64,000 nt of DNA from an uncultured Acidobacteriota bacterium (GTDB lineage Bacteria > Acidobacteriota > UBA6911 > RPQK01 > JAPXNP01): assembly GCA_963777605.1 (NCBI GenBank), contig CAVZRV010000030.1, positions 32,001 to 96,000 of the forward strand, read 5' to 3'. How positions within the stretch are numbered: the first letter of the stretch is position 1; each line of letters opens with the position of its first letter. This document shows positions 11,680 through 21,176 of the stretch, piece after piece. Below the pieces are notes generated by a model, which ran no database searches, was not told the origin of the DNA, and saw only the letters and a program-made list of their open reading frames with translations. The position numbers were made by a program, and so were the translations under genes.

Positions 11680-14254
11680 ATGAGAGAGTGGGTCATACGA
11701 GTCCTGTCCTTATGTCTGACCATCGGAGTGTTGGCGTGCTCGAACTGTTCGACCGGTGAACAACCTCTCACAATCGGTATCTCACCCGTGGCAGACCCCC
11801 TGGAAGTATTGGCAGCCAAGGAACTCCGGCGCTACTGGTACCTGACGACCGGGAAACTGGGTGACATCCGGACGGTTGACGAACCGTCGGCGACAACCTC
11901 GAATCAGGTTATCCTTTGCACCATCGGAACCCCGTTCTCGCTTTCTGTCGAGCGAGTCCTGTCCCCGCCGGCGACCGACATCCAGGATGACCAGGGATAC
12001 CAGGTAATCAGCATCGGAGACCGGGGCAGCGGCGGAGTCCTGGTCCGGGGCGCCAGTCACCTCGGGACACTCTACGGTGCCTATCGCTTGATCGAGGCTC
12101 TCGGGGTTCGCTTCTATCCGGATGGCGACGCAATTCCGGAGATCCGAAAGGACCTCCGGCTTCCGCTGTTGAACCTGGTGGAGGCTCCCGCATTCCGGCT
12201 GCGGGGGATTCAGCCTTTTCACGATTTTCCGGAGGGGCCTGACTGGTGGAACCTGGACGACTACAAAGCGACCATCGCTCAGCTTGCGAAGATGCGGCTG
12301 AACTTCATCGGTTTTCACACCTATCCCTCCAAACCTTTCGACGGGGCATCGAAGCCGGAACCGATGGTGTGGATCGGCCTCGAAGACCAGGTTGCCGATG
12401 GGGGTCAGGTCCGTTCCGCGTATCCGGTGATGCACTTTCACACCGGGGACCGGACCTGGGGTTACGACACGATGGAGACATCGGCCTTCCACCTGGGGGG
12501 ATCGCAGCTTTTCGATCGGGACGACTACGGAGCCGGCTACATGGCCGGGATTTCGCCGTGGCCGCATCGACAGGAGGAGAATGTACGGATTTTCGACGAG
12601 TTCGGGAAACTCCAGCGAAGCGCGTTCGGCTTTGCCCGGAAGCTCGGAGTCCGAACCTGCGTCGGAACCGAAACTCCACTGACCATCCCGGAACCAGTGC
12701 AGGCCGAACTGCTCAGGCGGGGGATGGCCCCCGACTCGGAGGATGCCGTTCGCGCTGTCTACCGGGGGATCTTCACCCGCATCATGAAGACCCATCCACT
12801 GGACTACTACTGGTTTTGGACTCCCGAGTCGTGGACCTGGGATGAGATTCCCGATCGGGAAGTGGATCAGACCCGCAAGGATTTACTCGTCGCCTACGAG
12901 GTTGCCCGGGAGCTTGGAGTCCCCTTCGAGCTGGCCACGTCGGGATGGGTCCTGGGTCCTCCGGGGAACCGGGCGCAGTTCGACCAGGAACTGCCCAAGG
13001 AGATCGCCTTCAGCTGCATCAACCGCGAGGTCGGTTTCACCCCGGTGGAAGAGGGGTTCAGGCGGGTAGAGGGCCGTTCAAAGTGGGCGATACCGTGGCT
13101 GGAAGACGACCCTGCGCTCACCTCGCCGCAATTGTGGGTTGGGAGGGTCCGGCGTGATGCCCGGGATGCTCAGCGCTACGGTTGCGACGGCCTCTTCGGG
13201 ATCCACTGGCGCACGCGTCCTCTCGGCCCGGCGTTCGGTGCCCTCGCCCAGGCCGGATGGTCGGTACGTGATTGGGCCGAATCTCCTGACGGTCGTGACC
13301 TGGCCTCCGACGATTTTTACCTGGATTGGGCGGTCGCCCAGTTTGGGCCGGATGCGGGTCCGGAGGCGGCACGGATCTTCACCGAAGTGGACGGGGGGCC
13401 GCTCTATCACAGCGGCCAGGGTCCCCGGCAGGCCAATCTCTTCCGGGCTTCCGACTGGGCGGGTAAGGGGCCGGGCGGCGTCTTGGTCAACGAGGAACCC
13501 TGGAGTGAAGTGGCGCCCCGGTTCTCGTTTGTGGAGGAACTGGCGGCGTTGGAACCCAGGGTCACCGGAGCGGCCGCAAGGGAGCGGTTTGAATACTGGT
13601 TGAACCTGTTTCGTCTATTCCCGGCAGATGGCCGAGGTCGGCTGTACCCTGGGCGAACTGAAGGCGGCTGTGGGTGCCGCACAGAGGGAGAGAAGCCGGG
13701 TACAGGCACGGATCAGGACTGAGCAGGAGATTCTGCCACTGCGGGAGCGGGCAGCCCGGGAATGGAGCGAGATGGGGACCCTCCTGCTGAAGTACGTCAG
13801 CACGACCGGCGGAATGGGGACGATCGCCAACCTGGAACAGCACAACCTCGCCAACCTGAAACGATTGACGGAGTACGACGACGCCCTCGAGAAGCTCCTG
13901 GGAAAACCGGTTCCAGGACTTGAACTCGCAAGGGACTACCAGGGGCCGGACCGGCTCTTTCTCCCGACCAGGCGGGGAACCCTCGAAAGAGGTGAGGATT
14001 TGCGACTGGAGGCGATCGTCCTGAGCCGGATTCCCCCGAGCGAGGTTGTGCTCCACTGGAGGATGCTCGGCGACGGTGAGTTCTCGGAAGAGACCTTTAT
14101 GAGCGGAGAACGGGGCGTTTATCGGATAATACTGGAGTCAGCCCGGATCGGTGACTCGGACATTGAGTATTTTGTAGAGGCCAGAATGGACGGTTCCGCC
14201 CTTGTTGCCCCTCCGTCCGCTCCGGTGACGGGCCAGACCGTAGTGGTCTGGTGA
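11680..14254 (+). CDS. Large exported glycoside-hydrolase-like protein (GH20/67/115-type N-domain + TIM barrel); apparent +1 frameshift ~13612
   Basis: Signal/lipobox-like N-terminus; GTLYGAYRLIE, PAFRLRGIQPFH, KMRLNF, PWLEDD, GIHWR; continues as F-R-Y-S-R-Q-MAEVG in the +1 frame to 14254. Confidence 0.6.
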
Positions 14255-16639: not shown

Positions 16640-16671
16640 TTCATCCCGCTAGTCGAATTCGTAGAGGAAGA

Positions 16672-18012
16672 ATGATGACGAGAATTGCTATGTGGAACGT
16701 GTTCTTGGGCCTCCTGCTGCTGCTCACTGCAGCCGGGTGCTCTTCGCAGAGCGGGCCGACAGCCAAGGCCGAGGCCCAGGAATTTCGCCAGGCCATGCAA
16801 TCGTATCAGCAGAGCAAGGACCCTGCAGAGAAACTCCGCTTGGCCACCGACTTCCTGGACAAGTACCCCGACAGTCCATATACGGTCCAAGTGGTCGATG
16901 CGGTAACCCGTGACTACTATGGTACCGCCGTGACTGACCCAAAAGGGGCGGTCGCGTTTGCCCAGTCCAGGCTGGCCGGGTTGTCCGATCAGCGCCAAAT
17001 TGAGGCGGGACGCCTGGTTCTCCTGCGGTTGTACGGAAAGGCGGGCATGGGAGAGTCAATCGCGGCTCTGGCGGACAAACTGGGTTCGAAGGCGAGCCTC
17101 TCCGACCGGACGGCGATCGTTGATGGAGCGGTGGCAGCCGGTGACTGGGGCCTGGTGGAAAGAGAGGCTCAAGTCACCCTCGATCTCCTTTCCCCCGATT
17201 ATCTCAAGAACAGGTCGGGAGGCGAGGAACTGAACGAAGCCCAGATTGATTTCGAACTCCGGATGCAGAAGGCCGACCTTTATCGGTATCTCGGAGAGGC
17301 CCGTTTTCGCCAGGGTGCCGTCGGTGACGCTCTCAAGGATTTCGAGTCGGCTAACCAGGACGAGATTCGTAATTTCGTGGGTCTTGGCTTTACTTCGCTG
17401 GACGAAATGTGGGGAGAGGCCTTGATCGCTTCGGGAGAGAACCAGAAGGCGATGGACGTGCTGGAGCGTCCCGCCCTGATCGGACGCAACGAGGAGGCAC
17501 TCGGGCTGTTTAGAAAGGCGTATCTTGCGACCGGGCATCCCGAAAAGGAGTTCGATCGATTTTGTGCCGACCGGCGAGTCCAGGTGGCGCCGGAGATGCC
17601 AGGCTTTCAGGCTCTGGATTACAGCGGAAAGGAATTCACCTACGAGCCGGGCAACGGAAAGGTCACCTTCCTGGCCTTCTGGTTCCCGACATGAGGGGGA
17701 TGCCGCGTGGAGTTGCCACGCCTCCAGTCGCTTTACGAGAAGTTTCGGGATCGTGGTGTCGAGTTTATCGCCGTGGAAGCGGTGCGCGACACTGAAGGAG
17801 CAGAAGAGTTCATCGAGAAGAACGGCCTGAGTTATCGCTTCCTGGAGAACGGAGAAGGAAAGAGGGAGATCGTGCGCTCATTGTTCCATGTCCGGGTGTT
17901 CCCGACGTCGCTGTTGATTGACCAGAAGGGCCGGGTGGTCAGCTGCCATATCGACTACAGTGAGGGCGACGACGCCCGCTTTGAATCTGAGATCCTAAAC
18001 CTCCTGAGTTGA
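16672..18012 (+). CDS. Putative selenoprotein: lipoprotein with TPR-like helical region and TlpA/redoxin domain, UxxC active site (TGA 17692-17694 = Sec)
   Basis: ORFs 16672-17694 and 17707-18012 are in the same frame. Read-through gives [19 protein letters not shown], followed by [11 protein letters not shown]. Lipobox TAAGC; hairpin 10 nt after the TGA. Confidence 0.85.
17695..17725 (+). promoter_or_regulatory. Candidate bacterial SECIS element
   Basis: GCGTGG-AGTTG-CCACGC perfect 6-bp stem (17705-17721) with G as 2nd loop base; possible lower stem GGGGGA/CTCC. Confidence 0.7.
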
Positions 18013-18026
18013 ATCGAGGAACTAGT

Positions 18027-19826
18027 TTGAACACACGAGAAGACATAAGAAACCTGGCCATCATCGCTCACGTCGATCACGGCAAGACGACCCTGGTGGA
18101 TGCGATGCTGTGGCAGAGCGGGATTTTTCGAAACAACGAGCAGGTCGCCGAGCGGGTGATGGACTCCATTGACCTGGAGCGGGAAAAGGGAATCACCATC
18201 ATGGCGAAGAATACTTCGATCTTCTATCGAGGTGTTCGAATCAACATCGTCGACACTCCGGGACACGCCGACTTCGGAGGCGAAGTCGAGCGAACCCTCA
18301 AGATGGTGGACGGAGTCCTGCTCCTGGTCGATGCAAGCGAGGGACCGCTTCCACAGACCCGCTTCGTGCTCCGGAAGGCGCTGGAAGCGAGCCTGCCGAC
18401 GATCCTGGTCATCAACAAGATCGACCGCTCCGACGCCCGTATCGAAGAAGTCCTCGACGAGGTTTACGACCTCTTTATCGACCTGGATGCCTCGGACGAT
18501 CAACTCGACTTCCCGATTCTTTACTGCAATGCTCGGGCAGGAGTCTGCCGAACCGAGCCCGAGGGAGAGGACCAGACCCTGGTTCCCCTGTTCGAACAGA
18601 TCCTCGCGACGTTTTCCGGTCCTCGCTTCGATCCGGATGCTCCCCTGCAGTTCCTGGTGACCAGCCTCGACTATGACGACTACGTCGGACGTCTTGCCGT
18701 TGGACGGGTCTTCAACGGCTCGTTGAAGACCCGGCAGAAAGCCATGCTGGCCCGGAATGACGATTCGATGGTCCCGGTTGACGTCACCGGCCTGTTTGGC
18801 TACGACGGGCTCAAGCGAGTCAAGATCGACGCGGCCCGCGCCGGTGACATTGTTTCGATTGCCGGGATTCAGGAAATCAGCATCGGCGAGACGGTGACCG
18901 CGGTGGAGCGGCCGCTCCGGCTTCCGGGGATCCGGGTAGACGAACCGACTCTGGCCGTGACGATTTCAATCAACGATTCGCCCTTTTCGGGCAGGGACGG
19001 GAGGTACCTCACGTCCCGGAAGATCAAGGAGCGGCTGGACCGCGAGACCCTGACCAATGTCTCCATCCGGGTGGAACCCACCGATTCACCCGACTGCTTT
19101 CAGGTTTCCGGCCGGGGTGAACTACAGTTGGCCATTCTCATCGAGATGATGCGACGAGAGGACTTCGAAATGACCGTCGGGAGGCCCCAGGTCCTGACTC
19201 ACCTCGAGGACGGGCAGGTGATGGAGCCGATGGAGAGCCTGGTTATCGATTGCCCGGAGGAGTACATCGGCGTCGTCACGGAAGCGGTTGGGATTCGCAA
19301 GGGCCGGATGACCAAGATGGTTAATCACGGCACTGGTCGGGTTCGGATGGAGTTTCGCATTCCATCGAGAGGTCTGCTCGGCTTCCGCTCGCAGTTCCTG
19401 ACCGACACGCGCGGGTCCGGAATCCTGACCCATGTTTTCGACGGCTACGACGTCTGGCAGGGCGAGATCTCCCAACGCAGCAGTGGGGCCATGGTTTCGG
19501 ACCGCCCCGGACGCGCTACCGGCTACGCGATTGAGCACCTGCAGCCGCGAGGTGAATTGTTCGTGCTCCCGGGAGAAGAAGTCTACGAAGGGATGATCGT
19601 GGGCGAGAATGCCCGTCCACAGGATCTCGACGTGAACATCACCAAGGAGAAGAAGTTGACCAATATGCGCTCCTCGACATCCGACGAACTCATTCACCTG
19701 ATTCCGCCGCGGCGGATGAGCCTGGAGCAGTCGCTCGAGTACGTTCGCGAGGACGAAGCCCTGGAGGTCACCCCGAAGTCGGTGCGGCTCAGGAAGCGGT
19801 TCCTTCAGGCCTCGAAGAGAAAGTGA
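18027..19826 (+). CDS. typA: Translational GTPase TypA/BipA
   Basis: [57 protein letters not shown]; TTG start after GAGGA. Confidence 0.97.
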
Positions 19827-19952
19827 ACGGGCGATGAATCGATGAAACCCGGGGGTATGGAGATCGCGCATCCGTCCTCCAACCGATCAGTGCCGGATCC
19901 TCCGGTATGGGCAGCCAAGATTCCGTGAGAGTCCCCGGCTATACTGTCCTCG

Positions 19953-21176
19953 ATGAGCGTTCGTACGGGGAGTGCTGACCTGCCGCTTCATGGGGGGCGC
20001 GTGCCGGCCTGGCTGGCCGGGCGGATGGCCCGCCTGGGCCGGGTCGTCACCGAAGCAATCGTCGGAGAATACGGGCGGGATGAGTTTCTGGCTCGACTGT
20101 CCCATCCCTTCTGGTTTCAGTCGTTCGGTGCCGTTATGGGGATGGACTGGCATTCTTCGGGGATTACGACGAGTGTTCTCGGGGCCTTGAAGCGGGGACT
20201 CGAGCCGGTGCAGTGGGAACTGGGCATTCACGTCTGCGGCGGTCGGGGAAGGCATTCTCGAAGGACTCCGCAGGAGCTGATCGCGGTCGGACAGGGCCGG
20301 GGGCTCGATGGCGAGGGCCTGGCCGAGAAGAGCCGGCTTGTGGCCAAGGTGGACAGTGCCGCCGTTCAGGACGGATACCAGCTCTATCTCCATGGGTTCA
20401 TTGTGACCGACAAGGGGAACTGGGCCGTCGTGCAGCAGGGAATGAACCCCGAGCTGCGCCAGGCGCGGCGGTACCACTGGCTGTCGACGCGGGTCTCCTC
20501 TTTTGTCGAGGAACCCCACAGTGCAATTGAAGGACCGACCCAAGGGGAGATCCTCAACCTGACCGACAGGCGGGCCCGTATCTCCCGGGAAACTCAGGTC
20601 GCGCTGATTTCGGATCCTGACCAGGTTGTTGGTACCTTGAAGCTGCCGTCTCACCATGATGTCCGGACGCGCGACGTGAATCTGCCCCGACTCCGCGCCA
20701 CTCTCCTGTCGGCGGCGCGGCGCGGCCCGGTCGATTTTCAGGATCTGATGATGACTCCCGGAGTCGGTGCGCGCACCCTGGAAGCTTTGGCGCTGGTTGC
20801 TGAGGTGATTCACGGTGCTCCATGCCGTTTTCAGGACCCGGCCCGTTTTTCATTTGCCCATGGTGGCAAAGACGGACATCCCTTCCCGGTTCCCCTCAAG
20901 GTCTATGACGAGACCATTCGTGTCCTCCGTGGAGCCGTTGACCGCGCCCGGTTGGGAAATGACGACCGCCTGGCCGCCATCCGTCGACTTGACCTCGAGT
21001 CAAGGCGACTGGAGTCCTGGTCCGAATCGGGCCTCGCATTTGAGGACCAACCGTCTCTTGAGGAAATCACCCAGGCCCGGAGGGTCCAGGGGCCGGCGCT
21101 CGACGAACGCTCGGTCGGAACTTCAAAATCGAGAAAGGTTCTGCCGCAGACTCCCCGTCAGTTGACGCTGTTCTGA
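19953..21176 (+). CDS. DUF763 domain protein
   Basis: GSADLPLHGGRVP, WFQSFGAVMGMDWHSSGITT, KVDSAAVQDGY, FSFAHGGKDGHPFPVP. Confidence 0.85.
   Translation: MSVRTGSADLPLHGGRVPAWLAGRMARLGRVVTEAIVGEYGRDEFLARLSHPFWFQSFGAVMGMDWHSSGITTSVLGALKRGLEPVQWELGIHVCGGRGRHSRRTPQELIAVGQGRGLDGEGLAEKSRLVAKVDSAAVQDGYQLYLHGFIVTDKGNWAVVQQGMNPELRQARRYHWLSTRVSSFVEEPHSAIEGPTQGEILNLTDRRARISRETQVALISDPDQVVGTLKLPSHHDVRTRDVNLPRLRATLLSAARRGPVDFQDLMMTPGVGARTLEALALVAEVIHGAPCRFQDPARFSFAHGGKDGHPFPVPLKVYDETIRVLRGAVDRARLGNDDRLAAIRRLDLESRRLESWSESGLAFEDQPSLEEITQARRVQGPALDERSVGTSKSRKVLPQTPRQLTLF

What the first reader, a model, noticed from the sequence alone, without database searches (positions are those of the whole stretch)
16672..18012. 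Hidden exported selenoprotein: TPR-TlpA lipoprotein with UGGC active site and SECIS-like hairpin
Seen: two ORFs in the same frame separated only by TGA-GGG-GGA-TGC-CGC. The TGA sits exactly at the first Cys of the TlpA motif (FW-x-x-x-CxxC-x-x-E-x-P), giving [15 protein letters not shown] perfect stem GCGTGG/CCACGC with an AGTTG loop starts 10 nt downstream. There is an N-terminal lipobox and a TPR-like helical region. Known: bacterial Sec insertion uses UGA plus an immediately downstream hairpin with a G near the start of the loop, and UxxC thioredoxin-fold selenoproteins exist. Inference: a 446-aa membrane-anchored extracytoplasmic Sec oxidoreductase with a substrate-recruiting TPR region, lying between tex and typA. 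Automated annotation would split it.
Basis: partly seen in the sequence, partly recalled or inferred. Interest (0 to 1): 0.85.

Follow-up and report, generated by a model that had tools for sequence, protein, structure and literature searches.

The report
Exported TPR–TlpA selenoprotein gene, real
The apparent stop codon inside this gene almost certainly encodes selenocysteine at the active site of an exported redox enzyme, one of a large family that gene callers cut short, though this kind of bacterial selenoprotein is already known.

Summary
Window 16672-18012 is one 446-codon gene. Its in-frame TGA (17692-17694) sits at the first Cys of a TlpA/ResA-type CxxC motif ([14 protein letters not shown]).

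- **Sec machinery:** the genome has selA, selB, selD (itself with an in-frame TGA) and tRNA-Sec.
- **Orthologs:** 6 of 6 full-length orthologs, 31-39% identical, keep the TGA at the same position.
- **Databases:** the N-terminal domain found 168 representatives in 1.84 billion. Of the best 150, 131 end exactly before this position and 8 are full-length with Cys there.
- **Hairpin:** GCGUGG-AGUUG-CCACGC meets the published bacterial SECIS criteria. It pairs in 384 of 384 cells across 64 sequences, with compensatory changes at 4 of 6 pairs. It is absent from 15 of 15 Cys-form genes carrying the same FWFPT motif.
- **Structure:** AlphaFold gives a signal peptide with lipobox, a TPR-like solenoid, and a ResA-like thioredoxin fold (Z 20.8).

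The biochemical role is inferred: an extracytoplasmic reductase, probably fed by DsbD/CcdA. Thioredoxin-fold UxxC selenoproteins have been catalogued since 2005, so this is a new, Sec-dominated, systematically truncated member of a known kind. I found no description of this two-domain architecture. The scan had already noted an AhpD-like selenoprotein elsewhere in this genome.

The parts
16664..16668 (+). Shine-Dalgarno-like GAGGA upstream of the two candidate ATG starts (16672 and 16675)
   Evidence: Read directly from the sequence. The database product P0002 starts at the second ATG.
16672..16740 (+). Signal peptide with lipobox-like L-T-A-A-G-C. Cys23 (16738-16740) is the presumed lipidated residue.
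   Evidence: Translation. The model gives helix 2-20 with pLDDT 63-69. Of 127 homologs of 320 aa or more, 123 have an N-terminal hydrophobic run and 62 match a lipobox regex recalled from PROSITE. No signal-peptide predictor was available.
16756..17586 (+). All-helical TPR-like solenoid domain (residues about 29-305, 15 helices)
   Evidence: AF2 gives pLDDT 97.2 and pTM 0.91 for the domain alone. The top Foldseek and VIA hits are mostly TPR proteins, best Z 14.6 and Foldseek E 2.4e-5. Pfam TPR_14 scores 19.7 bits, below its 23.5 cut-off.
17587..18009 (+). TlpA/ResA-like thioredoxin-fold domain (residues 306-446), spanning the TGA
   Evidence: Pfam AhpC-TSA 52.3, Redoxin 50.8 and Thioredoxin_8 47.5 bits, all over cut-off. 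ResA 2f9s Z 20.8 with rmsd 1.9 over 137 residues; DsbE 3gl3 Z 20.6; CcmG 1kng Z 17.6; TlpA 1jfu Z 16.0.
17692..17694 (+). Sec codon UGA (residue 341), the first position of the U-G-G-C redox motif
   Evidence: TGA is at the same column in 7 of 7 orthologous genes and in the 64 family loci, which were selected by this motif. Cys occupies this position in 8 full-length homologs.
17701..17703 (+). Resolving Cys344 (TGC) of the UxxC motif
   Evidence: invariant Cys, codons TGC/TGT.
17705..17721 (+). bSECIS hairpin: 6-bp stem GCGUGG/CCACGC and 5-nt loop AGUUG, with 16 nt between the UGA and the loop
   Evidence: MFE -9.0 kcal/mol. The criteria come from the Fig. 2 legend of PMC13188914. 384 of 384 cells are paired, 4 of 6 pairs carry double changes, and there are 22 compensatory cells against 2.2 +/- 1.3 in shuffles. 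5 of 6 codons are invariant here against 1 of 45 elsewhere. The hairpin is absent from 15 of 15 Cys forms.
17899..17910 (+). F-P-T-S, the presumed cis-proline loop of the thioredoxin fold (residues 410-413)
   Evidence: Position. P and T are invariant in the 7 orthologs (columns +71 and +72). Its role as the cis-Pro loop is inferred from knowledge of thioredoxin folds and was not tested.
18010..18012 (+). True stop codon (TGA), with no hairpin behind it. typA follows after 14 nt if it starts at TTG 18027.

Best explanation
Window 16672-18012 is a single gene for a 446-residue selenoprotein.

**Shown by comparison:** the UGA at 17692-17694 is decoded as selenocysteine. SelB and Sec-tRNA(Sec) would be recruited by a 17-nt hairpin that lies 10 nt downstream, inside the codons for R-V-E-L-P-R.

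**Inferred:** the product is exported through its signal peptide and, in this organism, probably anchored as a lipoprotein by Cys23.

**Shown by model:** it has a TPR-like alpha-solenoid of about 280 residues followed by a TlpA/ResA/CcmG-type thioredoxin fold.

**Inferred mechanism:** Sec341 takes the place of the nucleophilic first Cys of CxxC and forms a selenenylsulfide with Cys344. The protein would act as an extracytoplasmic thiol-disulfide reductase that DsbD/CcdA keeps reduced. The TPR-like domain would hold the substrate or partner. The substrate is unknown.

The gene belongs to a large family found mainly in Acidobacteriota. Sec is the rule in this family and Cys the exception. Gene callers end nearly every member at the UGA.
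For: - **Sec machinery in the same genome:** SelA 430.1 bits, SelB 354.4 bits, SelD 362.8 bits with one in-frame TGA, and tRNA-Sec 70.5 bits with anticodon TCA.
- **Orthologs:** 6 of the 15 same-family genomes searched have a full-length ortholog, and 6 of 6 carry exactly one TGA at FWFPT-U-xxC. They are 31-39% identical to the window's protein.
- **Database truncation:** phmmer of residues 1-305 against 1.84 billion representatives gave 168 hits at E<=0.001. Of the 150 listed, 131 end immediately before the Sec position (96 end in FWFPT). Eight are full-length with CxxC there, and 11 are fragments that end elsewhere.
- **DNA pattern search:** Of the 80 loci returned, 64 match the family profile and 16 are chance hits in short frames.
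- **Hairpin:** loop 5 nt, stem 6 bp, G at loop position 2 followed by U, 16 nt from UGA to loop, MFE -9.0. All four published bSECIS constraints are met.
  - Across 64 sequences, 100% of 384 cells pair. Four of 6 pairs change on both sides (GC>UA, CG>UA, GC>AU, UA>CG/AU), and these changes alter the encoded residues (R>L, V>A/M/K/E, R>H/Y/Q).
  - There are 22 compensatory cells against 2.2 +/- 1.3 in shuffles (0 of 500 reach the observed value). With the partner slid by 1-3 columns, pairing drops to 20-66%.
  - Synonymous sites are frozen: 5 of 6 hairpin codons are invariant, against 1 of 45 other invariant-residue codons.
  - Control: all six positions can pair in 62 of 62 Sec-form loci (the other 2 of the 64 are cut off by contig ends), in 0 of 15 real Cys-form FWFPT-C-xx-C genes, and in 0 of 16 chance TGA matches.
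- **Fold:** AF2 pLDDT 94.9 and pTM 0.88 for the whole protein. ResA Z 20.8, DsbE 20.6, CcmG 17.6, TlpA 16.0. The N-domain hits are mostly TPR proteins.
- **Export:** 123 of 127 homologs have an N-terminal hydrophobic run.
- **Possible electron donor:** a DsbD_TM gene is present in the genome at 104.4 bits.
- **TGA is otherwise a stop here:** it ends 32 of 45 open frames of 300 codons or more in the window, and it ends this gene itself.
Against: - There is no direct evidence of selenium in the protein and none of expression. No RNA run was listed.
- The hairpin region is not thermodynamically exceptional: z 0.44, and 126 of 200 shuffles fold at least as well.
- The 6-bp stem and the 16-nt spacing both sit at the short end of the published ranges.
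- The 64 loci were selected by the FWFPT-TGA-xx-TGY pattern, and many are close kin, so the cell counts overstate the number of independent events.
- No NCBIfam model reaches its cut-off: ResA 72.7 against 170, TlpA 30.6 against 230, WAxxUGC_long 34.4 against 300. Orthology to a characterised enzyme is therefore not shown.
- No conserved redox partner lies next to the gene. The commonest neighbour, in 10 of 64 loci, is an RF-1-domain protein. Class II aldolase follows in 5 of 5 same-family orthologs, while tex and typA flank only here. The function rests on fold analogy alone.
- The lipobox pattern is met in only 62 of 127 homologs. Lipidation is not a family trait and was not tested with a dedicated predictor.
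Confidence: 0.88

Rival explanations
1. The TGA is a genuine stop. The locus makes a 340-residue exported TPR protein. The downstream 101-codon frame (GTG 17707 to 18012) is either a separate small thioredoxin-like gene or not expressed.
For: This is how gene callers read it: P0002 has 339 aa, and 131 of the 150 best homolog representatives end there. TGA is the commonest stop in the window.
Against: The thioredoxin fold would be cut between strand beta-1 (FLAFWFPT) and the active-site helix, and Pfam and AF2 both model one domain across the TGA. The frame and the residues are conserved across the TGA in 7 of 7 orthologs at 31-39% identity to the window's protein. The TGA aligns with Cys in 8 full-length homologs. 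The candidate GTG 17707 lies inside the conserved hairpin and has no ribosome-binding site. The hairpin covaries.
Confidence: 0.03
2. Dual output. UGA decoding is incomplete, so the gene yields both the full selenoprotein and, when selenium is scarce, a truncated TPR-only exported protein with a role of its own.
For: Sec insertion competing with termination is established bacterial biology (recalled, not from a call). The N-domain folds on its own with pLDDT 97.2.
Against: Nothing in the data requires it. Among the 150 best homologs, no natural N-domain-only form ending upstream of the beta-1 strand was seen, other than fragments. A product ending at FWFPT would carry an orphan beta-strand.
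Confidence: 0.07
3. Pseudogene or assembly/sequencing error: a Cys codon (TGC/TGT) mutated or misread as TGA.
For: One base separates TGA from TGC/TGT. The source reads could not be examined.
Against: The same TGA is present in 6 of 6 orthologs from other genomes and in 64 family loci. A specific covarying hairpin accompanies it and is missing from Cys forms. The full Sec machinery is present.
Confidence: 0.01
4. UGA is read through without selenocysteine, by near-cognate Trp/Cys/Arg insertion or by a reassigned code.
For: Read-through alone would also give an open frame.
Against: TGA ends 32 of 45 long frames in the window, and it ends this gene. The position is the catalytic Cys of CxxC, where only Cys or Sec works. 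The genome carries selA, selB, selD and tRNA-Sec. The hairpin fits the SelB-type bSECIS model.
Confidence: 0.01

Closest known systems
ResA (Bacillus subtilis), CcmG/DsbE and TlpA (Bradyrhizobium): extracytoplasmic, membrane-anchored thiol-disulfide reductases of the TlpA-like thioredoxin family
   Same: The C-domain has the same fold: 2f9s Z 20.8, 3gl3 Z 20.6, 1kng Z 17.6, 1jfu Z 16.0. The redox motif sits at the same place. There is an N-terminal export/anchor signal, and a DsbD-type donor is present in the genome.
   Different: Sec replaces the first Cys. A TPR-like domain of about 280 residues precedes the fold. Scores stay far below the NCBIfam cut-offs for ResA (72.7/170) and TlpA (30.6/230). 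It does not lie in a cytochrome c maturation or Sco context.
[quoted passage not shown]
   Same: UxxC on a TlpA/redoxin/AhpC-TSA-type fold with a bacterial SECIS just downstream. These families are listed in the table of PMC13188914 (passages), in PMC1088965 Tables 1-3 (passages) and in PMC1794560 Tables 1-3 (passages).
   Different: The listed example accessions could not be fetched, so identity with one of these families is neither shown nor excluded. The passages I read mention no TPR domain, lipoprotein or FWFPTUGGC motif ('tetratricopeptide' and 'lipoprotein' occur 0 times in PMC13188914). In this family Sec forms far outnumber Cys forms (131 against 8 of 150).
NF041054 'ResA-like WAxxUGC motif-containing protein' (NCBIfam selenoprotein equivalog)
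   Same: A ResA-like domain with Sec at the redox motif and a long N-terminal extension. It is the only selenoprotein-specific NCBIfam model that hit.
   Different: It scores 34.4 bits against a cut-off of 300. The motif is U-G-C there and U-G-G-C here. The match covers the thioredoxin domain only.
Etrx1/Etrx2 (Streptococcus pneumoniae) and SdbA (S. gordonii): surface-exposed thioredoxin-family proteins (Etrx2 is a lipoprotein)
   Same: A TlpA-like fold outside the cytoplasmic membrane, lipid-anchored in Etrx2: 4hqz Z 17.2, 5um7 Z 19.2.
   Different: They use Cys, they are single-domain, and they come from Gram-positive hosts. Their link to methionine sulfoxide reductase is recalled, not tested here.

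Membership tests
Bacterial selenoprotein gene (Sec-UGA plus bSECIS) | In-frame UGA that aligns with Cys in homologs | tested here: met
   Eight full-length homologs have CxxC at the aligned site. Pfam thioredoxin-fold models span the site.
Bacterial selenoprotein gene (Sec-UGA plus bSECIS) | UGA and protein conservation on both sides are kept in orthologs of other organisms | tested here: met
   6 of 6 orthologs, 31-39% identical to the window's protein. 64 of 80 pattern-selected loci are family members with about 104 open codons after the TGA.
Bacterial selenoprotein gene (Sec-UGA plus bSECIS) | bSECIS model: loop 3-9 nt, upper stem 4-16 bp, G in the first two loop positions, 16-37 nt from UGA to loop, MFE <= -7.5 kcal/mol (PMC13188914, Fig. 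2 legend) | tested here: met
   Loop 5 nt (AGUUG), stem 6 bp, G at loop position 2, spacing 16 nt, MFE -9.0. Covariation supports the stem. bSECISearch itself was not available.
Bacterial selenoprotein gene (Sec-UGA plus bSECIS) | selA, selB, selC and selD present in the genome | tested here: met
   All are over the curated cut-offs, and ARAGORN gives tRNA-SeC with anticodon TCA.
Bacterial selenoprotein gene (Sec-UGA plus bSECIS) | Selenium shown in the protein | not testable with these tools
   Needs 75Se labelling or mass spectrometry.
TlpA-like thioredoxin family (ResA/CcmG/DsbE/TlpA; cd02966) | Thioredoxin fold of the TlpA/ResA type with the redox motif at the start of helix 1 | tested here: met
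   ResA 2f9s Z 20.8, rmsd 1.9 over 137 of 138 residues. Foldseek TMt 0.88-0.90.
TlpA-like thioredoxin family (ResA/CcmG/DsbE/TlpA; cd02966) | Extracytoplasmic location through a signal peptide or membrane anchor | tested here: inconclusive
   A hydrophobic N-terminus and a lipobox-like LTAAG-C are present, but no dedicated signal-peptide or lipoprotein predictor was run.
ResA or TlpA proper (NCBIfam NF002854, NF047696) | Score over the curated cut-off | tested here: not met
   72.7 against 170 and 30.6 against 230 bits. It works like them but is not filed as either.
NF041054 WAxxUGC_long selenoprotein | Score over the curated cut-off, and a WAxxUGC motif | tested here: not met
   34.4 against 300 bits. 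The motif here is FWFPTUGGC.
Tetratricopeptide repeat (TPR) proteins | Sequence match to Pfam TPR models | tested here: not met
   The best is TPR_14 at 19.7 bits, below its 23.5 cut-off. The others are weaker.
Tetratricopeptide repeat (TPR) proteins | Helix-turn-helix repeat solenoid fold | tested here: inconclusive
   The top structural hits are mostly TPR proteins. However, Z is 12.6-14.6, close to the level said to be common for helical repeats. Foldseek gives E 2.4e-5 with TM 0.36.

The most novel reading that the evidence does not exclude
This gene represents an undescribed, widespread family in Acidobacteriota, Gemmatimonadota, Krumholzibacteriia and allied phyla. Its members are exported two-domain selenoproteins (TPR-like clamp plus TlpA-U). 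Selenocysteine is the ancestral and near-universal state, with 131 Sec-truncated against 8 Cys representatives. The SECIS is so constrained that it fixes the codons of the R-V-E-L-P-R active-site helix. The C-terminal TPR module, which resembles Hsp70/Hsp90 tail-binding clamps, would deliver a specific periplasmic client to a selenolate reductase. That would be a dedicated envelope repair or maturation pathway that depends on selenium and is absent from current annotation.
Probability: 0.35. Interest if true: 0.55.

Novelty: new member of a known kind. Interest (0 to 1): 0.4.

Why it matters
Two practical points follow. First, a whole family is mis-annotated in public databases as 'hypothetical' or 'TPR repeat' proteins of about 340 residues that lack their catalytic domain. 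Any redox or selenium budget drawn for Acidobacteriota and their neighbours therefore misses it. Second, the family offers a clean natural test case for the bacterial SECIS. It is a minimal 17-nt hairpin at the shortest allowed spacing, with many natural compensatory variants. It overlaps conserved active-site codons, so the pressure from the RNA and from the protein can be separated. Biologically it adds an envelope-located, Sec-dependent thiol reductase to soil and sediment bacteria. It does not change what is known about how Sec is decoded or what thioredoxin folds do.

Tried and rejected
- **Rfam:** a scan of 17600-17800 at E<=10 gave only two chance matches (mir-646, WT1-AS_4). No bacterial SECIS family matched. 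This says little, because such short hairpins are poorly modelled.
- **Thermodynamics:** the 81-nt stretch does not fold better than shuffles, so energy was dropped as an argument.
- **Reads:** only one public run held a small share (0.14) of the stretch, kept as contigs, and no RNA holder was listed. One 151-nt contig with 1 difference covers 17546-17696, and two more divergent contigs cover 17674-17746. No alternative letter is listed at 17692-17694. Depth is 2-8 and the first contig ends 2 nt past the TGA, so this neither confirms nor refutes the base call.
- **The search for related loci:** The single protein found only one unrelated TlpA-domain locus. A DNA pattern search was used instead.
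- **The search for homologous proteins:** the word-indexed search gave 7 hits, of which 5 are truncated N-pieces. No full-length annotated selenoprotein record appeared. The search is word-limited, so this is not evidence of absence.
- **Synteny:** tex and typA are not next to the orthologs. The neighbour clusters (RF-1 domain protein in 10 of 64 loci, a phytase-like protein in 7, IF-2B family in 5, and class II aldolase in 5 of 5 same-family orthologs) gave no redox partner.
- **Literature.** Three full-text searches were answered:
  - 'selenocysteine, TlpA, lipoprotein' found 2 unrelated reviews.
  - 'selenoprotein, disulfide interchange protein, bacterial SECIS, thioredoxin-like' found 14 papers.
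  - 'selenoprotein, Acidobacteria, TPR, thioredoxin' found 0 papers.
  - PMC5029168 has none of six search terms.
  - Haft & Tolstoy 2025 (PMC12013261) is not held, and supplements are closed. The supplementary tables of the selenoproteome surveys may list this family.
- **Earlier scan notes:** a search by sequence found nothing.
- **Complex prediction:** not used, because no partner is claimed.
Full report
**Observation.** An ORF from ATG 16672 (or ATG 16675) ends at TGA 17692-17694. The same frame continues GGG GGA TGC CGC GTG GAG TTG CCA CGC and stays open to the TGA at 18010-18012. Reading TGA as U gives 446 residues with [14 protein letters not shown]. The hairpin is GCGTGG (17705-17710), AGTTG (17711-17715) and CCACGC (17716-17721), after a 10-nt spacer. 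Pfam AhpC-TSA (52.3 bits), Redoxin (50.8) and Thioredoxin_8 (47.5) match residues 308-432 across the TGA, all over their cut-offs. The upstream gene is tex, with Tex_N, Tex central region, Tex_YqgF, HHH_3, HHH_9 and S1 domains. The downstream gene is typA (TIGR01394, 910.5 bits).

**Sec machinery.** The window's genome (6.73 Mb, 53 contigs) has all four components:
- SelA, 430.1 bits.
- SelB, 354.4 bits against a cut-off of 242.
- SelD, 362.8 bits with one in-frame TGA, in the context KCAG-U-ASKL.
- tRNA-Sec, 70.5 bits, which ARAGORN calls tRNA-SeC with anticodon TCA.

TGA is otherwise the main stop. It ends 32 of 45 mechanically listed open frames of 300 codons or more in the window, so a reassigned code is excluded.

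**Orthologs.** The read-through protein was searched in 40 related genomes. Six of the 15 same-family genomes have a full-length match (E 1e-51 to 1e-75), and every one of the six carries exactly one TGA. After extraction and alignment, the TGA is at the same column in 7 of 7 genes, in FWFPT-U-(GG/PG/PA)-C-RVELPRL. Identity to the window's protein is only 31-39%. The other nine same-family genomes gave only thioredoxin-domain paralog matches.

**The family in protein databases.** The word-indexed search returned only truncated pieces of 337-349 residues, including the window's own 339-residue product. A source names these 'hypothetical protein' or 'TPR repeat protein'. An exhaustive phmmer search with residues 1-305 against 1.84 billion representatives found 168 proteins at E<=0.001 and 106 at E<=1e-10. 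The 150 listed break down as follows:
- 131 end immediately before the Sec position (129 by regex, plus P0079 and P0115). Of these, 96 end in FWFPT.
- 8 are full-length and have CxxC at that position, for example FWYPT-C-IGC-RVELP.
- 11 are fragments that end elsewhere.

So Cys homologs exist, but Sec forms dominate. The Atlas look-up agrees: the nearest clusters are about 340-residue 'hypothetical' or 'TPR' proteins, mainly from Acidobacteriota and Krumholzibacteriota.

**The family in genomes.** Sixty-four match a profile of the family; these have 22-753 open codons before the TGA (the shortest are cut by contig ends or upstream stops) and, where the contig allows, 103-115 after it. Sixteen are chance hits in short frames. 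By record title the 64 are:
- 41 Acidobacteriota: 20 labelled generically, 9 Holophagae or Holophagales, and 12 Thermoanaerobaculia or its orders and families. That the last two groups belong to this phylum is recalled, not tested.
- 3 Candidatus Sulfomarinibacteraceae.
- 5 Gemmatimonadota.
- 2 Krumholzibacteriia.
- 1 each of Latescibacteria, Chitinivibrionia, Fibrobacteraceae, Glassbacteria, 'Deltaproteobacteria' and 'Chondromyces sp.'.
- 7 unnamed bacteria.

Seven loci score only 54-101 bits and are distant in the N-domain: the five Gemmatimonadota, the Glassbacteria locus and one Acidobacteria locus.

**SECIS.** The published bacterial model asks for four things: a 3-9 nt apical loop on a 4-16 bp stem, a G in the first two loop positions, 16-37 nt between the UGA and the loop, and MFE <= -7.5 kcal/mol (PMC13188914, Fig. 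2 legend, passage read). Here the loop is 5 nt (A-G-U-U-G), the stem is 6 bp, the spacing is 16 nt and the MFE is -9.0. All four are met, with two at the lower limit.

Three independent lines show that the RNA itself is under selection.
- **Synonymous sites.** Among the 7 orthologs, 5 of the 6 hairpin codons are codon-invariant. Only 1 of 45 other columns with an invariant, degenerate residue is.
- **Covariation.** In an alignment of 64 sequences, all 384 stem cells form standard pairs. Four of 6 pairs show changes on both sides (GC to UA in 4 sequences, CG to UA in 10, GC to AU in 2, and UA to CG or AU in 6). There are 22 compensatory cells against 2.2 +/- 1.3 in column shuffles (0 of 500 reach the observed value). 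Sliding the partner by 1-3 columns drops pairing to 20-66%. These changes alter the protein (Arg to Leu; Val to Ala, Met, Lys or Glu; Arg to His, Tyr or Gln), so pairing is kept at the cost of residues.
- **Control.** The matching pattern with TGY in place of TGA found 105 stretches, and 80 loci were returned. Fifteen of these are real thioredoxin-like genes, and in 0 of 15 can all six positions pair (the maximum is 4). All six pair in 62 of 62 Sec-form loci (2 of the 64 are cut off by contig ends) and in 0 of 16 chance TGA hits.

There are points against. The 81-nt region does not fold better than shuffles (z 0.44). No Rfam family matched. The loci are related and pattern-selected, so cell counts are not counts of independent events.

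**Structure.** With a 50-row alignment, AlphaFold2 gives pLDDT 94.9 and pTM 0.88. The model has an N-terminal helix (residues 2-20, pLDDT 63-69), 15 helices from residue 29 to 305, and then a beta-alpha thioredoxin fold.
- **C-domain.** It matches ResA (2f9s, Z 20.8, rmsd 1.9, 137 residues), DsbE (3gl3, Z 20.6), SdbA (Z 19.2), CcmG (Z 17.6), the pneumococcal lipoprotein Etrx2 (Z 17.2) and TlpA (Z 16.0).
- **N-domain.** Modelled alone (pLDDT 97.2), it finds mostly TPR proteins. The best Foldseek hit is a consensus TPR at E 2.4e-5, with TM of only 0.36. VIA-align gives Z 12.6-14.6. Protein residues 141-293 align to three-repeat peptide-clamp TPR domains of FKBP38/52, PP5, Sti1, Sgt2 and Sec72. 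These Z values are close to what helical repeats commonly reach, and the Pfam TPR models stay below cut-off. 'TPR-like' is therefore a fold description, not a membership.

**Export.** The N-terminus has a hydrophobic core followed by L-T-A-A-G-C. Of 127 homologs of 320 residues or more, 123 have an N-terminal hydrophobic run and 62 match a lipobox pattern recalled from PROSITE. Export looks like a family trait, and lipidation a trait of about half the members, this one included. No dedicated predictor was available.

**Context and function.** The gene is packed between tex (32 nt upstream) and typA (14 nt downstream, if typA starts at TTG 18027 behind GAGGA). This context is not shared by the orthologs.
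- The same-family orthologs have class II fructose-bisphosphate aldolase downstream in 5 of 5 loci.
- Across the 64 loci the commonest neighbour, in 10 loci, is a 140-186-residue RF-1-domain protein directly downstream. Next come a phytase-like protein in 7 loci and an IF-2B-family protein in 5.
- No redox partner travels with the gene.
- The genome has one DsbD_TM gene (104.4 bits).

The proposed mechanism is therefore inferred from the fold family. DsbD/CcdA would pass electrons to the U-G-G-C centre. Sec341 would attack a substrate disulfide (or another oxidised sulfur species), and Cys344 would resolve the intermediate. The TPR-like domain would bind the client. I put about 0.5 on this functional outline and about 0.9 or more on the gene being a genuine selenoprotein gene.

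**Comparison with what is known.** Thioredoxin-fold UxxC selenoproteins are long catalogued.
- 'Prx-like protein' and 'thiol-disulfide isomerase-like protein', both UXXC, appear in the Sargasso Sea survey (PMC1088965, tables read).
- 'Prx-like thiol:disulfide oxidoreductase' and 'thiol:disulfide interchange protein' appear in the 2006 genome survey (PMC1794560, tables read).
- The 2026 review lists cd02966, PF08534, PF00578 and PF13098 UxxC families and a 'UGC-containing TlpA' family (PMC13188914, passages read).
- The scan itself had already noted an AhpD-like selenoprotein in this genome and judged it real but ordinary.

What I did not find is this two-domain architecture. It was absent from the passages read and from three full-text searches. 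It was also absent from NCBIfam, where the best selenoprotein model (NF041054) scores 34.4 against 300, and ResA and TlpA also stay below cut-off. I could not fetch the example accessions or read supplements, and PMC12013261 is not held. The family may therefore be covered by one of the broad catalogue entries.

**Verdict.** It is a new, Sec-dominated and systematically truncated member of a known kind of bacterial selenoprotein. It is useful for annotation and as a natural SECIS variant series, but it would not surprise a specialist.

Noticed in passing
G000:C7:931111-932034 (-), outside the window: The genome's selD itself has an in-frame TGA (…KCAG-U-ASKL…), so selenophosphate synthetase is a selenoprotein here.
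   Followed up: partly
G000:C7:756228-756830 (+), outside the window: There is a second, single-domain TlpA-like gene with an in-frame TGA at FFFPT-U-GTC-NAELPQL and a lipobox-like LLWACPGC N-terminus. It is about 26% identical to residues 307-444 of this protein. Several related genomes also have short Sec-TlpA paralogs with one TGA.
   Followed up: partly
L069:5973-6392, L071:202-759, L087:140-601 and 7 further loci: A 140-186-residue RF-1-domain protein lies directly downstream on the same strand in 10 of 64 family loci. From recall it looks like the ribosome-rescue factor ArfB. It is probably inherited synteny among kin, but it is curious next to a recoded gene.
   Followed up: partly
window 18009-18029: The mechanical typA ORF starts at TTG 18009, overlapping this gene's stop. 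However, the TypA model starts matching at residue 13 of that ORF, and TTG 18027 is preceded by GAGGA (18016-18020). typA therefore more likely starts at 18027, 14 nt after the selenoprotein gene, which suggests co-transcription of tex, this gene and typA.
   Followed up: no
window 19953-21176 (+): A 407-residue DUF763 protein (416.5 bits) lies downstream of typA. The opposite-strand ORFs 19122-19871 and 19887-20813, and the ORF 13628-14254, have no Pfam match, and the last two also have no NCBIfam match.
   Followed up: no
G000:C29:412511-413152 and C29:419808-421721, outside the window: The only DsbD_TM gene found (a 641-codon frame) lies about 7 kb from selB on the same contig. A link was not examined.
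   Followed up: no
L179, L193, L205, L207, L208, L218, L232, L242 and L167, L178, L212, L214, L228, L239: The exact FWFPT-C-xx-C motif with Cys occurs in Neisseria/Kingella (CPGC/CHGC, short proteins), in Bacteroidota (about 400-residue N-extensions) and in Solibacteraceae (one with a 590-codon upstream frame, one cut by the contig end). None has the hairpin. Fourteen of the 15 real Cys-form genes score only 20-52 bits against the family profile.
   Followed up: partly
L092, L114 (upstream frames of 715 and 753 codons); P0136, P0138, P0139 (677-695 aa): Some members have the TPR-like domain preceded by a further 350-400 residues, and they still end at or continue through the Sec site. A longer architecture therefore exists.
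   Followed up: no
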